Virus genome (UHGV): UHGV-1491546
Length of the DNA stretch: 39,185 nucleotides
Reading direction: 5' to 3' (one strand)
Source of the DNA: a virus
The notes beneath the pieces are model-generated. The model did no database searches and was not told the DNA's origin. It saw nothing but the letters and a program-made list of their open reading frames with translations. The first letter of the stretch is position 1. Each line of letters opens with the position of its first letter. Below, in pieces: positions 6,863 to 9,613 of the stretch. The position numbers and the translations under genes are program-made.

Positions 6863-7135
6863 TTACCTCGCCGTCAGTTGTTTTGATTTCCGGTAGCCTG
6901 CCGCGTAAAGAGCTACGTTTGGCAGGCAAATACTTCCACTGCATTCATCTGCCTTCTTGCAGCGAAGGCTTCCGAGTGAAGCTGCTTTGTCTGCTCTGAC
7001 GCAACCAGAGAGCTTTAGCGCAATTTTTCGCGCCAGTCGCTGCTCTTGCATTGCCTGTTCACGTTGAGCCTGTCTGCGTGCTCTGCGGCGATTTCTGGCG
7101 TTATCGTCAGCCAGATATGTAATGACTACTGTCAT
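6863..7135 (-). CDS. N: N-type transcription antiterminator (P22 gene 24-like)
   Basis: From ATG 7133-7135 (GGAGG SD): MTVVITYLADDNARNRRRARRQAQ... with an N-terminal arginine-rich motif and C-terminus LPNVALYAAGYRKSKQLTAR close to recalled P22 gp24; track ORF extends to 7207. Confidence 0.8.
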   Translation of the reverse strand: MTVVITYLADDNARNRRRARRQAQREQAMQEQRLARKIALKLSGCVRADKAASLGSLRCKKADECSGSICLPNVALYAAGYRKSKQLTAR

Positions 7136-7175
7136 GTTGACCTCCGGGTAGGTGCACATCCTTGTGTGTCGATGA

Positions 7176-7295
7176 TTATTTGTTTTTGCGTTCCCACATC
7201 CAGTCATCTACTTCAGACCAGATAGTGAAACCGAAGCCGATGGCGAATGTGGTAACTAAACCACCGAGAATTGGGTTGGTCATGATGTCTAACAT
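7176..7295 (-). CDS. small hydrophobic peptide (39 aa), possible type I toxin-like membrane peptide
   Basis: ATG 7293-7295 preceded by GAGGAA; MLDIMTNPILGGLVTTFAIGFGFTIWSEVDDWMWERKNK; below the ORF-track cutoff; overlaps the track N extension in another frame. Confidence 0.4.
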   Translation of the reverse strand: MLDIMTNPILGGLVTTFAIGFGFTIWSEVDDWMWERKNK

Positions 7296-7320
7296 TTTCT
7301 GTTCCTCAGATGATTAGCTT

Positions 7321-7547
7321 TGGTGGTGTGGTGGCTGGTAGTCTAGCTCCAGCTTGTTGAGTCTCATTCGGAGGGGTATAACCGGCACCCCAGCGATTTT
7401 TCCATGCGACAACGTGCGCGTTATGGCGGCCTTATCGCCCGCGGCTCCCCATCTCGTCCACGCTATTGCTAGCGTTGGGAGCGCTTCACCGCTCAACAGT
7501 AGGTAAGCACTTGCCAGTGACTAGCTGGCTTCACCACACCCCAAAGC
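7321..7547. other. GC-rich ORF-free element bounded by imperfect inverted repeats (structured RNA leader or MITE-like insert)
   Basis: About 58 percent GC by eye against a more AT-rich background; only TTG/GTG ORFs without SD; 7321-7342 and 7520-7547 are inverted complements (GGTGTGGTG / CACCACACC). Confidence 0.4.
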
Positions 7548-7561
7548 CAACTACTCTTTGG

Positions 7562-7604
7562 TTCCCGCATTTCGGCGGGACAATCCCATCAATGTTAAAG
7601 AGCC
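7562..7604 (-). promoter_or_regulatory. nutL (boxA and boxB)
   Basis: Minus strand: boxA GGCTCTTTA (plus 7596-7604), 14 nt, then boxB GTCCCGCCGAAATGCGGGAA, 19 of 20 identical to the nutR boxB at 9258-9277. Confidence 0.7.
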
Positions 7605-7649
7605 TGCCAATCTGTTCCGTTTGGCTACCAGCGTCCTGCTGATGGCTAA

Positions 7650-7736
7650 AGAATACTGTAGGTATTTTATTGTGTAAATACCCAAGGTATTTATTTTTGG
7701 TGAAATAATGATAAGCAAATGAATACAAAGGATATT
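7650..7736 (-). promoter_or_regulatory. OL operators and pL promoter
   Basis: Three 15-bp sites AATAC-N5-GTATT (third ATATT) at 7652-7666, 7677-7691 and 7722-7736; minus-strand -35 TTTACA (7673-7678) and -10 TATTCT (7650-7655) with 17-bp spacer. Confidence 0.6.
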
Positions 7737-7822
7737 TATTTTTTCGGTGTCTGCTTGTTCAGTGCTTTTTATGCGGGATATGTGAAGTGGATCCCGATAG
7801 CTATTGCTGCCGGGATTATGGG

Positions 7823-8191
7823 TTAGTCAGCGAAGGTTAAGACGAGAATTACCTTAATGATGTCTGCTACAACAGACACGGCCATAGATAAACCAAAGAC
7901 AATCCAAGCCATAGAGATGTCTTCACTACCATCGTATAGAGTTCCGTAATCACTGGTGTAAGGCGTAAATGTCGCGCCTTGATACAATAGGTATAAGCTT
8001 GATCCATAGAGGATAAATGCAGATATCCCTTGTATTGCCATGATCGCCAGAATCATGAAACGAGCTGATCTATGCGCCCAAGCCTGGCTTATTTTTTCTG
8101 ATAGAGATTTCGCAATAAAAGCATGCGCTAAGCCGTAAATTGTTGAGATTGCCAACATCCCCAAAAAGCTTGCTATAGCGGTTACAACCAT
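7823..8191 (-). CDS. multi-pass membrane protein downstream of cI (rex/sie-slot gene)
   Basis: ATG 8189-8191, 18 nt after the cI stop (track ORF starts at TTG 8212); 122 aa with about four hydrophobic helices; likely co-transcribed with cI. Confidence 0.6.
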   Translation of the reverse strand: MVVTAIASFLGMLAISTIYGLAHAFIAKSLSEKISQAWAHRSARFMILAIMAIQGISAFILYGSSLYLLYQGATFTPYTSDYGTLYDGSEDISMAWIVFGLSMAVSVVADIIKVILVLTFAD

Positions 8192-8208
8192 AATCGCCCC
8201 TTGCGTGA

Positions 8209-8925
8209 TCAAACCAGCCTTAGTTTTGTCTCAATTGCAACGCCTATAATCTTGCAGTTTCCATTGATTGGCACGAGAGGCCATGCAGGATTAAGTCCCT
8301 TGAGGTATTTATTTCCGCCGTCGATTATCAGCTTCTTGAATGTTGCTTCGTTAGAGTCAGAAAGTTTTGCTATGACCAAGCTGCCGTTGATCGCCTCCCT
8401 TCCGGTATCGAAAAGAACGAATGTTCCCTCTGGAATGCTTAACCCAACCGGTGCCGTCATTGAATCACCTTCCACTTTAAGCCAAAACGCATTACCTTGA
8501 ATATGCGCGTCAGACTCAAGCCAAACATCTATGTCTTTAATGGTGTATGGTTCGCATGCTTCACACCACGAGCCAGCCTGGATACTGCTTAACACCGGAT
8601 ACCTCTTTCCTGCTCTGTATTCCCCTGCATACCTTACGTTGGCATCGCTCTTAAGGCTTTCTGCCTGTTCTGCAACCTTGGCAGCAATTGACTGGCTAAA
8701 ATCAGCAATTGAGACTTGCAACAATCGTGCAAAACCAGATGCAACCTCAACGTTTAGCGCATTTCTGCCATTAAGATAATGCCCTACCGCTCCTTGGGTG
8801 ATACCCAGTTCATCAGCGATTGAGTATTGGGTTATTCCCAATTCTTTCTTTTTTGACTCATACAAAGCCTTAAGCCGCTTAGCGTCTTCGAGCTGTTCTG
8901 TCGTCAGTGATTTTTTATTTTCCAT
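8209..8925 (-). CDS. cI: CI-type prophage repressor (HTH domain plus S24 LexA-like peptidase domain)
   Basis: 238 aa; N-terminal helix-turn-helix (ITQYSIADELGITQGAVGHYLNG) and C-terminal autocleavage-type domain (VEGDSMTAP...); divergent from cro across OR. Confidence 0.9.
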   Translation of the reverse strand: MENKKSLTTEQLEDAKRLKALYESKKKELGITQYSIADELGITQGAVGHYLNGRNALNVEVASGFARLLQVSIADFSQSIAAKVAEQAESLKSDANVRYAGEYRAGKRYPVLSSIQAGSWCEACEPYTIKDIDVWLESDAHIQGNAFWLKVEGDSMTAPVGLSIPEGTFVLFDTGREAINGSLVIAKLSDSNEATFKKLIIDGGNKYLKGLNPAWPLVPINGNCKIIGVAIETKLRLV

Positions 8926-9031
8926 AGCTTAATTCTAATAGCTAAGGTACTTAAACTAAAAATACCCTGAGTATTGATTGCCTTGAATACCTGTAGTATT
9001 CTTTGTTCATGGTTAATAACGGAGAGTGCAT
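8926..9031. promoter_or_regulatory. OR operators with divergent pR and pRM
   Basis: Sites AATAC-N5-GTATT at 8961-8975 and 8986-9000 plus a degenerate site at 8937-8951, centres 24-25 bp apart; pR -35 TTGATT (8974-8979) and -10 TATTCT (8997-9002). Confidence 0.65.
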
Positions 9032-9226
9032 ATGATTCGAATGACACTTGCCGATTACGCCAAAATCCATGGACAGGCTAAAGCAGCCAGTGACTTTGGT
9101 GTAATCCAGTGCGCTATCAGCAAGGCCATTCTGGCAGGCCGTAACATCATGGTTACGGTAAAGCCTGATGGCAGTGTGATTGGAGAGGAAGTTCGTCCTT
9201 TCCCAAGCAACAAGAAAAACAAATAG
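9032..9226 (+). CDS. cro: Cro repressor
   Basis: [37 protein letters not shown]...PFPSNKK closely resembles recalled lambda Cro; GGAGAG SD before ATG 9032; track ORF starts at GTG 9026. Confidence 0.85.
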
Positions 9227-9232
9227 TAACAC

Positions 9233-9277
9233 CGCTCTTTAACAGTCATGGTCCTCATTCCCGCCGAAATGCGGGAA
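9233..9277 (+). promoter_or_regulatory. nutR (boxA and boxB)
   Basis: boxA CGCTCTTTA at 9233-9241; boxB hairpin TTCCCGC-CGAAAT-GCGGGAA at 9258-9277. Confidence 0.7.
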
Positions 9278-9283
9278 TACAAC

Positions 9284-9314
9284 GCGCATAAGTTGATGCG
9301 CATAACTTCTTATT
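9284..9314 (+). terminator. tR1-like terminator between nutR and cII
   Basis: Hairpin GCGCAT-AAGTTG-ATGCGC followed by a T-rich tract ATAACTTCTTATT. Confidence 0.4.
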
Positions 9315-9334
9315 AGTTAAGGAAATACTTACAT

Positions 9335-9613
9335 ATGCAACTTACAAGTACTCGCAAGAAAGCGAATGCAATTACAAGCAACATCCTGAATCGAATTGCT
9401 GTACGTGGTCAGCGAAAGGTTGCCGACGCGTTAGGGATTAATGAATCGCAAATTTCGCGATGGAAAGACAGCTTCATCCCAAAAATGGGAATGCTTCTGG
9501 CTGTTCTTGAATGGGGTGTTGAAGACGAGGAGTTGGCGGAACTGGCTAAGAAAGTAGCCAGAATGCTGACAAAAGAAAAAGCCCCGAAGAACGGCGAATT
9601 CTTCGAGGCCTGA
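9335..9613 (+). CDS. cII: CII transcriptional activator
   Basis: 92 aa; motif SQISRWK...PKMGMLLAVLEWGV matches recalled lambda CII. Confidence 0.85.
   Translation: MQLTSTRKKANAITSNILNRIAVRGQRKVADALGINESQISRWKDSFIPKMGMLLAVLEWGVEDEELAELAKKVARMLTKEKAPKNGEFFEA
9571..9608 (-). terminator. minus-strand terminator inside the cII 3-prime end (OOP-like antisense RNA terminator)
   Basis: Minus strand: CCTCGAAGAA-TTCGCCG-TTCTTCGGGG hairpin followed by CTTTTTCTTTT; position matches lambda tO for OOP RNA. Confidence 0.45.

What the first reader, a model, noticed from the sequence alone, without database searches (positions are those of the whole stretch)
7823..8191. Lysogen-expressed multi-pass membrane protein in the rex-equivalent slot directly downstream of cI
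A 122-aa protein with about four hydrophobic helices starts 18 nt after the cI stop on the same strand, so it should be transcribed with the repressor from pRM in a lysogen. In lambda this slot holds rexA-rexB and in other prophages abortive-infection genes. The protein is not recognisably RexB or SieB, making it a candidate superinfection-exclusion or abortive-infection factor.
Basis: partly seen in the sequence, partly recalled or inferred. Interest (0 to 1): 0.65.

Follow-up and report, generated by a model that had tools for sequence, protein, structure and literature searches.

The report
HkaS: orphan membrane protein behind cI
The ORF is a real, conserved gene (HkaS of coliphage HK620) for a small three-helix inner-membrane protein that always sits just after one family of prophage repressors. 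It is a fair but untested candidate for protecting lysogens against other phages.

Summary
Window 7823-8191 (minus strand) is an intact 122-codon gene with a Shine-Dalgarno site, 17 nt after the cI stop and ahead of OL/pL.

- **Identity:** it is not new as an ORF. It is hkaS of phage HK620 (annotated 'unknown') and PHROG 6534 (unknown function).
- **Structure:** hydropathy and AlphaFold2 (pLDDT 92.5) give three membrane helices, not four. The topology is N-out/C-in, with a basic cytoplasmic loop and an invariant Tyr/Gly-rich acidic periplasmic hairpin.
- **Selection:** the gene is under purifying selection (pN/pS about 0.2). It is intact in 80/80 viral contigs and full length in all 146 E. coli genomes that carry it.
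- **Linkage:** it always follows an HK620-type cI, in every copy with upstream sequence, from E. coli, Salmonella and Hafnia. Flanking modules vary.
- **Homology:** the family is a sequence orphan. It has no detectable relation to RexB, SieA, SieB, Imm, 434 Hex or any PADLOC, Pfam or PDB entry.
- **Dispensability:** one viable phage (HF4s) carries a frameshifted copy.
- **Function:** no published function was found. The best guess is a lysogen-expressed membrane factor that blocks superinfection, working like SieA rather than Rex. This rests on position and topology only.
- **Context:** the cI-to-N slot is already known as a hotspot for such cargo.

Interest is modest.

The parts
7823..8191 (-). 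hkaS coding sequence (122 codons plus stop TAA at 7823-7825)
   Evidence: It is 94-97.5% identical to HkaS of HK620, HK630, mEpX2, HK140 and Stx2c phages, and matches phrog_6534 over its full length with E=1.8e-76.
8197..8202 (-). Shine-Dalgarno AAGGGG, 5 nt upstream of the ATG
   Evidence: Read from the sequence. AAGGA-type sites sit at the same place in the Salmonella and Hafnia copies.
8209..8925 (-). cI repressor (238 aa, HTH_3 + Peptidase_S24), upstream gene of the presumed operon
   Evidence: It is 99.6-100% identical to the cI of HK620 and mEpX2.
8192..8208 (-). 17-nt cI-hkaS spacer with no predicted promoter or terminator
   Evidence: The spacer is 17-19 nt in 79/79 IMG/VR loci and 18-20 nt in the Hafnia and Salmonella loci.
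8938..8999 (.). OR3-OR2-OR1 operators, with cores at 8938-8950 (two mismatches), 8962-8974 and 8987-8999. pRM and pR lie in this region.
   Evidence: The core ATAC-N5-GTAT was found. The positions correspond to OR1-3 and pR as annotated in HK620. The pRM hexamers are my own reading of the sequence and are inferred.
7653..7735 (.). OL1 (7653-7665), OL2 (7678-7690) and a conserved OL3-like site (7723-7735, one mismatch). pL is read leftward from about 7678-7650.
   Evidence: The sites are conserved in the Salmonella, Hafnia and P0011 loci. HK620's record places OL3 at the equivalent of 7698-7714, which lacks the operator core.
7791..7816 (-). Stem-loop just after the hkaS stop (AUCCCGG...CGGGAU). 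No U-run follows it, so its role as a transcript end is uncertain.
   Evidence: It is conserved in the E. coli and Hafnia copies. No canonical terminator was found on this strand. The 'tIMM' annotated in HK620 corresponds to 7711-7741 and is only a weak A/U hairpin.
7982..7994 (.). Operator-core match ATACAATAGGTAT inside hkaS (codons 66-70, which encode the invariant motif YLLY)
   Evidence: It is one of only 5 matches in 39 kb, against 0.36 expected. It is kept in 81/81 E. coli-type copies but not in the Salmonella or Hafnia copies. Its significance is unresolved.

Best explanation
The ORF is the hkaS gene of an HK620-immunity lambdoid (P22-like) prophage.

Shown:
- It encodes a 122-aa protein with three membrane-spanning helices.
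- The positive-inside rule puts the N terminus in the periplasm, a K/R-rich loop (28-44) in the cytoplasm, an acidic Tyr/Gly-rich beta-hairpin loop (71-92) in the periplasm, and the C terminus at the cytoplasmic face.
- Residues D110 and K113 inside helix 3 are invariant.
- The gene is an accessory ('moron') gene that has stayed welded to one family of cI alleles while all surrounding modules were exchanged.
- It is dispensable for phage growth.

Inferred from layout:
- It is transcribed with cI from pRM in the lysogen and from pRE during establishment.
- It is not transcribed from pL or pR.

Inferred, and the least certain step:
- In the lysogen's inner membrane it acts alone as a superinfection-exclusion factor that interferes with genome entry or another membrane step of incoming phages.
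- Its conserved periplasmic hairpin and helix 3 would contact a conserved partner.
- In this it would work like P22 SieA, T4 Imm or HK97 gp15 rather than like the two-component RexA/RexB system.
For: - **Gene reality and selection:**
- **Topology and fold:**
- **Identity with HkaS and phrog_6534:**
- **Position:** the gene lies directly after cI in all 79 IMG/VR loci with upstream sequence, in 8 loci from Salmonella, Hafnia and metagenomes, and in the most divergent member.
- **Age of the linkage:** cI is 84-95% identical where HkaS is 53-80% identical. Synonymous sites between the E. coli and Salmonella copies are saturated, so the linkage is old.
- **Mosaic flanks:** the replication-side flanks fall into 9 clusters, and the N genes differ.
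- **No internal signal:** none is predicted between cI and hkaS, and pL lies downstream of it.
- **The slot elsewhere:** the same slot holds the defence systems rexAB in lambda and bstA in BTP1 (PMC8585504).
- **A precedent:** P22 SieA is likewise a small inner-membrane protein with three predicted TM domains that blocks DNA injection (PMC10883804).
- **No competitor in the window:** it has no SieA motif, no superinfection-exclusion PHROG among the proteins scanned, and no other plausible multi-pass membrane gene.
- **No partner:** there is no second gene between cI and OL, so a sensor partner of the RexA type is absent.
- **Dispensability:** the viable phage HF4s has a -1 frameshift in the gene.
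Against: - No experiment or paper links HkaS to any phenotype.
- The gene occurs in prophages of different virion types: P22-like, lambda-like HK630 and HK140, and Stx phages. This argues against a SieA-style block aimed at one kind of ejection apparatus.
- The periplasmic loop is the most conserved part. That fits a host target better than an arms race with phage proteins.
- cI-downstream cargo is not always defence. Examples are 434 Hex, annotated 'repressor protection protein', and a PagP-like gene in phage Huey.
- Expression in lysogens is inferred, not measured. The transcript's 3' end is not defined by a canonical terminator.
Confidence: 0.35

Rival explanations
1. HkaS is an abortive-infection effector that works like RexB. 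It would be a membrane protein that depolarises or permeabilises the inner membrane when an infection cue arrives, killing or arresting the cell before the invader completes its cycle. It would act without a dedicated RexA-type sensor.
For: - It occupies the same slot as rexAB (PMC8585504).
- It is a small multi-pass membrane protein with invariant polar or charged residues inside helices (Q54, D110, K113), as expected of an oligomeric pore.
- Its three-TM N-out/C-in layout is the same as that of class I holins (own knowledge of lambda S105).
Against: - There is no homology to RexB.
- It has three helices rather than four.
- No sensor gene lies in the operon.
- It has no charged C-terminal tail of the holin type.
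- Nothing indicates a trigger.
Confidence: 0.15
2. HkaS has no anti-phage role. It would be a lysogenic-conversion or host-fitness membrane factor, or a regulator of the prophage's own switch. For example, it might modulate a membrane protease such as FtsH or another host membrane protein, and so affect cII/cIII stability, induction or stress tolerance.
For: - Cargo in this slot is functionally mixed: 434 'repressor protection protein', a PagP-like gene in phage Huey, and unrelated soluble proteins after related cI genes.
- The strict, ancient linkage to one cI family would fit a function tied to that immunity module.
- The periplasmic loop and the C-terminal helix are strongly conserved while the rest drifts. 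This fits binding to a conserved host partner.
- The gene occurs irrespective of virion type.
Against: - No homology to any known regulator or fitness factor was found.
- Physical proximity alone (a 17-nt spacer) can explain the linkage to cI.
- A viable phage tolerates loss of the gene. That shows only that it is non-essential.
Confidence: 0.3
3. The ORF is a non-functional leftover: transcribed spacer between cI and OL that happens to be open.
For: - It is an orphan family with only one 50%-identity cluster among 1.84 billion representatives.
- Rare frameshifted alleles exist at an A6 run: HF4s, P0013, P0005 and P0008.
Against: - pN/pS is 0.215 and dN/dS is 0.15-0.2 with saturated synonymous divergence.
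- The ATG and SD are conserved.
- The ORF is intact in 80/80 IMG/VR loci and full length in 146/146 E. coli genomes that carry it.
- About 50 columns are invariant down to 53% identity.
- AlphaFold2 gives a confident model from only six sequences.
Confidence: 0.03

Closest known systems
HkaS of coliphage HK620 (AAK28867; PHROG 6534, unknown function)
   Same: It is the same gene. Protein identity is 94% to HK620 HkaS and up to 97.5% to other phage copies. The length is the same (122 aa). The position is the same, between cI and OL, within the same immunity module.
   Different: There are a few conservative substitutions (for example V3 and A49 in the window copy). The N-side module to the left of about 7523 differs from HK620.
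Lambda RexA/RexB
   Same: Both lie in the slot directly downstream of cI on the cI strand, before OL. RexB is also a small multi-pass inner-membrane protein.
   Different: - There is no sequence relation.
- It has three helices and 122 aa, against four helices and 144 aa (the RexB helix count is from own knowledge).
- It has no RexA-type partner, so a two-component sensor/channel mechanism cannot apply as such.
P22 SieA (inner-membrane block of DNA injection; PMC10883804)
   Same: Both are small prophage proteins with three predicted TM domains in the inner membrane, both are single-gene systems, and both occur in P22-like prophages.
   Different: - There is no detectable homology.
- The cytoplasmic FxRYPxEAxxFNK motif is absent from the protein and from the whole window.
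- SieA is 162-164 aa and lies in the ant/immI moron, not after the repressor.
- HkaS also occurs in lambda-like and Stx phages.
BstA of prophage BTP1 (PMC8585504)
   Same: It has the same architecture: a gene downstream of the repressor, presumed to share its promoter, in a P22-like prophage.
   Different: BstA is described as localising to sites of phage DNA replication and mediating abortive infection, with a DNA self-immunity element (aba). HkaS is a membrane protein with no PADLOC hit.
Phage 434 Hex ('repressor protection protein')
   Same: It is a single gene right after a related cI (52% identical to the window's cI), at the same position.
   Different: It is unrelated in sequence (hhalign probability 0.05%). 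By its annotation it acts on repressor protection, which is not a membrane role.

Membership tests
HkaS / PHROG 6534 | Full-length sequence match to the family profile | tested here: met
   phrog_6534 matched with E=1.8e-76 over 1-122 of 122 positions. tblastn gave 94-97.5% identity to HK620, HK630, mEpX2, HK140 and Stx2c phage copies.
HkaS / PHROG 6534 | Location directly after an HK620-type cI and before OL/pL | tested here: met
cI-downstream lysogen-expressed cargo (rex-equivalent slot) | Same strand as cI, between the cI stop and OL, with no intervening promoter or terminator | tested here: met
   The spacer is 17 nt, and no signals are predicted. Lambda was used for comparison.
cI-downstream lysogen-expressed cargo (rex-equivalent slot) | Transcribed from pRM in the lysogen | not testable with these tools
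   This needs RNA-seq, Northern or reporter data from a lysogen.
RexB (Pfam RexB family) | Sequence homology to RexB | tested here: not met
   Pfam gave no RexB hit at E<=1. hhalign against lambda RexB gave probability 0.3%.
RexB (Pfam RexB family) | Four transmembrane helices and a RexA partner gene in the operon | tested here: not met
   There are three helices and no other gene between cI and OL.
SieA (P22 type A/B/C) | Conserved cytoplasmic motif FxRYPxEAxxFNK, and homology | tested here: not met
   The motif was not found in any of the six frames of the window. PHROG hits for the ORF are all of unknown function, apart from a weak lysis-amidase match. The motif is taken from PMC10883804.
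SieA (P22 type A/B/C) | Inner-membrane protein with three predicted TM domains | tested here: met
   This is a prediction only: hydropathy and AlphaFold2. It is a resemblance in kind, not membership.
SieB, T4 Imm and other Pfam-defined exclusion proteins | Match to the family HMM | tested here: not met
   At E<=1 the Pfam scan returned only a sub-threshold Cation_ATPase_C match (19.3 bits against a cut-off of 27.3).
Known anti-phage defence systems (PADLOC-DB v2) | Match to any defence-protein model | tested here: not met
   0 families at E<=1.
Class I holins | Three TM helices N-out/C-in, plus a charged C-terminal tail and a location in the lysis cassette | tested here: not met
   The topology is similar. 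However, the protein ends at helix 3 ('...VLTFAD'), lies in the immunity region, and has no holin Pfam or PHROG hit.

The most novel reading that the evidence does not exclude
HkaS founds a new single-protein family of prophage defence. It would be a three-helix inner-membrane protein made with the repressor that protects HK620-immunity lysogens (about 2.7% of complete E. coli genomes) against heterologous phages, by acting on a conserved host inner-membrane component through its invariant periplasmic YLLYQGATFxPYxSxYG hairpin. It would do so independently of the virion type of the prophage that carries it. A further twist not excluded is that the operator-core sequence inside the gene (7982-7994) binds cI and ties the gene into repressor looping.
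Probability: 0.3. Interest if true: 0.55.

Novelty: new member of a known kind. Interest (0 to 1): 0.35.

Why it matters
- If HkaS excludes phages, it would add a new, very small, single-gene membrane defence to the list of cargo in the repressor-to-N slot of lambdoid prophages.
- It is found in about 1 in 37 complete E. coli genomes, including Stx-converting prophages. It could therefore affect phage therapy host range and phage-mediated gene flow.
- It is cheap to test: one 369-bp gene, with lab phages HK620, mEpX2, HK630 and HK140 available, and a natural frameshift control in HF4s.
- If it has no anti-phage effect, it is a useful reminder that position after cI does not by itself mean defence.

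Tried and rejected
- **Family libraries.** Pfam, NCBIfam and PADLOC gave no meaningful hit. The Cation_ATPase_C match (E=0.0011, below the cut-off) is taken as a hydrophobic-helix artefact.
- **Remote homology.** A word-indexed search of 5.8 billion proteins found 11 clusters, all within the family. An exhaustive profile HMM search of 1.84 billion representatives found only the family itself, one truncated allele, and a weak loop match to a 5949-aa YD/RHS-repeat protein.
- **Direct profile comparisons.** hhalign against lambda RexB and 434 Hex was negative.
- **Species-representative genomes.** The GTDB scan found no confirmed copy, so the gene is absent from the representative genomes scanned.
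- **Small convergent ORF.** The 35-aa hydrophobic ORF at 7719-7826 (+), annotated in HF4s, was rejected as a gene. It is cut to 10 codons in the Salmonella copies. What is conserved there is an OL3-like operator.
- **Terminator.** I looked for a canonical terminator after hkaS and found none. There is only a stem-loop without a U-run.
- **Literature.** Searches for hkaS, HK620 with exclusion, mEpX2 and 'downstream of cI' found nothing on function.
- **Downstream flank clustering.** My clustering of the N-side flanks was uninformative, because single linkage merged everything.

Full report
**What is there.** The window is a complete P22-like (Lederbergvirus-type) prophage with a lambdoid early region. 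On the minus strand lie cI (8209-8925, HTH_3 + Peptidase_S24) and an N-family antiterminator. On the plus strand lie cro (9032-9226), cII, an O-like replication gene and a DnaB-type helicase, followed by lysis and morphogenesis genes, Ant, a tailspike and an integrase. The ORF in question is on the minus strand at 7823-8191 and translates to 122 residues. Its ATG is preceded by AAGGGG at a 5-nt distance. It lies 17 nt after the cI stop codon. An alternative TTG start (129 aa) is unlikely. The divergent relatives keep the ATG and an AAGGA-type site, and the Salmonella copy has a stop codon directly before the ATG.

**It is an already named gene.** The immunity region from about 7523 to 9300 is 98.5-99% identical to phages HK620, mEpX2, HK630, HK140, HF4s, HZ41, two EHEC phages and two Stx2c phages. 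The protein is 94-97.5% identical to the product of hkaS in HK620 and its relatives. HK620's record annotates hkaS as 'unknown', between cI and a predicted tIMM/OL3-OL1/pL. It matches PHROG 6534 (unknown function) end to end with E=1.8e-76. RefSeq calls it 'hypothetical protein' in the 146 of 5426 complete E. coli genomes (2.7%) that carry it. All 146 copies are full length and chromosomal.

**It is a real protein-coding gene.**
- Among 41 distinct E. coli-type coding sequences, pN/pS is 0.215, against 0.018 for the adjacent cI.
- Against the Hafnia copy, dN/dS is 0.15-0.17. Against the Salmonella copy, synonymous sites are saturated while the protein is still 59% identical.
- All 80 IMG/VR loci retrieved have an intact 122-codon frame.
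- About 50 columns are invariant down to 53% identity.
- AlphaFold2 gives mean pLDDT 92.5 and pTM 0.79 from only six sequences.
- Rare disrupted alleles exist. The viable phage HF4s lacks one A in an A6 run at codons 32-34, which gives a 44-aa product identical in kind to P0013. P0005 and P0008 look frameshifted at the N terminus. The gene is therefore dispensable for phage propagation, as expected of accessory cargo.

**Anatomy of the protein.**
- Hydropathy shows three hydrophobic stretches, not four.
- The AlphaFold2 model has helices 2-29, 41-74 and 89-121, a short helix 31-38, and a small beta-hairpin at about 78-86.
- Loop 28-44 carries K28, K33, R41 and R44. Loop 71-92 carries D81, D87, E90 and D91. 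By the positive-inside rule the topology is N-out/C-in (inference).
- The most conserved parts are 'KIxQAWxHRxARF' (the cytoplasmic amphipathic segment), 'YLLYQGATFxPYxSxYG' (the end of helix 2 and the periplasmic hairpin), and 'ADIxKxIxVLTFAD' (helix 3 to the C terminus, with D110 and K113 invariant).
- Helix 1, the middle of helix 2 and the distal part of the periplasmic loop vary.

**Context and linkage.** The gene directly follows an HK620-family cI, with a 17-20-nt spacer, in every copy that has upstream sequence. It also precedes OL/pL/N wherever that side was read. The copies examined were:
- 79 IMG/VR loci;
- four Salmonella-type and four Hafnia-type loci;
- the most divergent member, P0011 at 53% identity, whose contig shows the C-terminal domain of an 84%-identical cI upstream and OL3-OL2-OL1 downstream.

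cI is 84-95% identical where HkaS is 53-80% identical, so the two co-diverge and HkaS evolves several times faster. The neighbouring modules are mosaic.
- N genes and replication genes differ between loci, and replication-side flanks fall into 9 clusters.
- Carriers include P22-like, lambda-like (HK630, HK140) and Stx phages.
- cI relatives at 58-71% identity (Serratia OS31, Erwinia 49, Cronobacter ENT39118, E. coli Fostie) have nothing, or unrelated soluble proteins, in the slot.
- 434 has Hex there, annotated 'repressor protection protein'. Lambda has rexA-rexB.

The slot is thus a variable cargo site. HkaS is the cargo of one immunity clade only.

**Regulatory layout.**
- The operator core ATAC-N5-GTAT occurs exactly five times in 39 kb, against 0.36 expected: OL1, OL2, OR2, OR1 and one site inside hkaS. 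OR3 and an OL3-like site are one- to two-mismatch versions.
- The only promoter-like site predicted in 7400-9350 is pL (7678-7650, minus strand). No promoter or terminator is predicted between cI and hkaS.
- hkaS lies upstream of pL and is antisense to pR. By analogy with lambda, it can therefore only be read from pRM and pRE (inference).
- The transcript's end is unclear. A stem-loop sits just after the stop (7791-7816) without a U-run. The equivalent of HK620's 'tIMM' is a weak A/U hairpin that overlaps the OL3-like site.

**Homology searches were all negative beyond the family.**
- Pfam gave only a sub-threshold Cation_ATPase_C match. NCBIfam and PADLOC gave nothing.
- The 5.8-billion-protein search returned 11 clusters, all family members.
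- The exhaustive profile search of 1.84 billion representatives returned one further family member, one truncated allele, and a weak match of the periplasmic loop to repeats of a 5949-aa YD/RHS-type protein.
- Profile comparisons with lambda RexB and 434 Hex gave probabilities of 0.3% and 0.05%.
- The SieA signature motif (PMC10883804) is absent from the whole window.
- No GTDB species-representative genome has a confirmed copy.

**What it most likely does.**

Shown:
- It is a conserved, dispensable gene for a three-helix membrane protein, welded to an immunity module.

Inferred from layout:
- It is expressed with the repressor in lysogens.

Inferred from analogy only:
- It has a prophage-protective role.

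I commit to a single-protein exclusion factor acting at the inner membrane, working like SieA, Imm or gp15. Three points support this. There is no partner gene of the RexA type. The window has no SieA or SieB equivalent among the genes scanned. SieA shows that a three-TM inner-membrane protein can block DNA delivery on its own (PMC10883804). Two facts make me keep this at about 0.35. The gene occurs in prophages with unrelated virions, and its periplasmic hairpin is invariant rather than fast-evolving. Both point to a conserved host target, which is equally compatible with a non-defence or regulatory role (about 0.3). A Rex-like abortive pore is possible (about 0.15). A non-functional ORF is very unlikely (about 0.03).

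**Comparison with what is known, and novelty.**
- The positional idea is established. Owen et al. (PMC8585504) note that the cI-to-N region is a hotspot of mosaic diversity holding rexAB and bstA. [quoted passage not shown]
- The ORF itself has been named since the HK620 genome paper (Clark et al. 2001, cited in PMC2629481).
- What remains open is the function. I found no paper that addresses it. The library does not cover most subscription journals.
- I therefore rate it as a new, uncharacterised member of a known kind (lysogen-expressed cargo behind the repressor). Interest is modest (0.35). It is an easy, well-defined wet-lab target, but not a surprise to a phage specialist.

Noticed in passing
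window 7982-7994 (inside hkaS, codons 66-70): A perfect match to the operator core ATAC-N5-GTAT lies inside the gene. It is the only one of five matches in the 39-kb window that is not OL1, OL2, OR1 or OR2 (0.36 expected by chance). It is kept in all 81 E. coli-type copies, with variation only in the N5 spacer. It is lost in the Salmonella and Hafnia copies, which use the same operator core. It encodes the invariant YLLY motif, so it may be a by-product of coding.
   Followed up: partly
window 7722-7736, against the HK620 record's OL3 (equivalent to 7698-7714): The third left operator annotated in HK620 has no operator core. A one-mismatch site, AATACAAAGGATATT, lies 45 bp from OL2 and is conserved in the E. 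coli, Salmonella, Hafnia and P0011 loci. It is a better OL3 candidate.
   Followed up: partly
window 7719-7826 (+): A 35-aa hydrophobic ORF runs convergent to hkaS and overlaps its stop codon. It is annotated as a 'putative phage protein' in HF4s. It is truncated to 10 codons in the Salmonella copies and differs in Hafnia, so it is probably not a gene.
   Followed up: yes
L097 (phage HF4s) 901-1268; window 8090-8095 (the A6 run on the coding strand, in codons 32-34 at 8090-8098): HF4s is the closest DNA match to this window's immunity region. It carries a -1 frameshift in an A6 run of hkaS, giving a 44-aa product. The same truncated product (P0013) is in the protein collection. This could be recurrent homopolymer slippage or a sequencing error.
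   Followed up: partly
window 7176-7295 (-): A 39-aa ORF with one hydrophobic helix (phrog_7482, unknown function, E=7e-24) lies between nutL and the N gene. It would be the first gene of the pL operon. The stretch 7314-7548 just upstream is 100% identical to Sf6, HK446, HK544, HK633, mEp213 and Sf101, where nothing is annotated.
   Followed up: no
window about 7523: A sharp mosaic junction lies here. To the right, the immunity region is HK620-type at about 99% identity. To the left, similarity to HK620 stops. The N gene and the genes that follow belong to another module: an N_peptide-family protein at 6863-7207, then PHROGs 5305, 1965 and 1636 of unknown function.
   Followed up: partly
HkaS residues 71-96, against P0014 residues 4028-4055: The periplasmic hairpin loop (QGATFTPYTSDYGTLYDG...) gives a weak profile match (E=4e-7, 9 stretches) to repeats of a 5949-aa YD/RHS-repeat protein. 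This suggests a YD-repeat-like beta-hairpin. It is probably structural or compositional resemblance only.
   Followed up: partly
window 7791-7816 (-): A stem-loop (AUCCCGG...CGGGAU) lies immediately after the hkaS stop. It is conserved in the E. coli and Hafnia copies but has no U-run. No canonical terminator separates hkaS from OL/pL in this window. The most divergent copy (L096) does have a hairpin followed by a T-run.
   Followed up: partly
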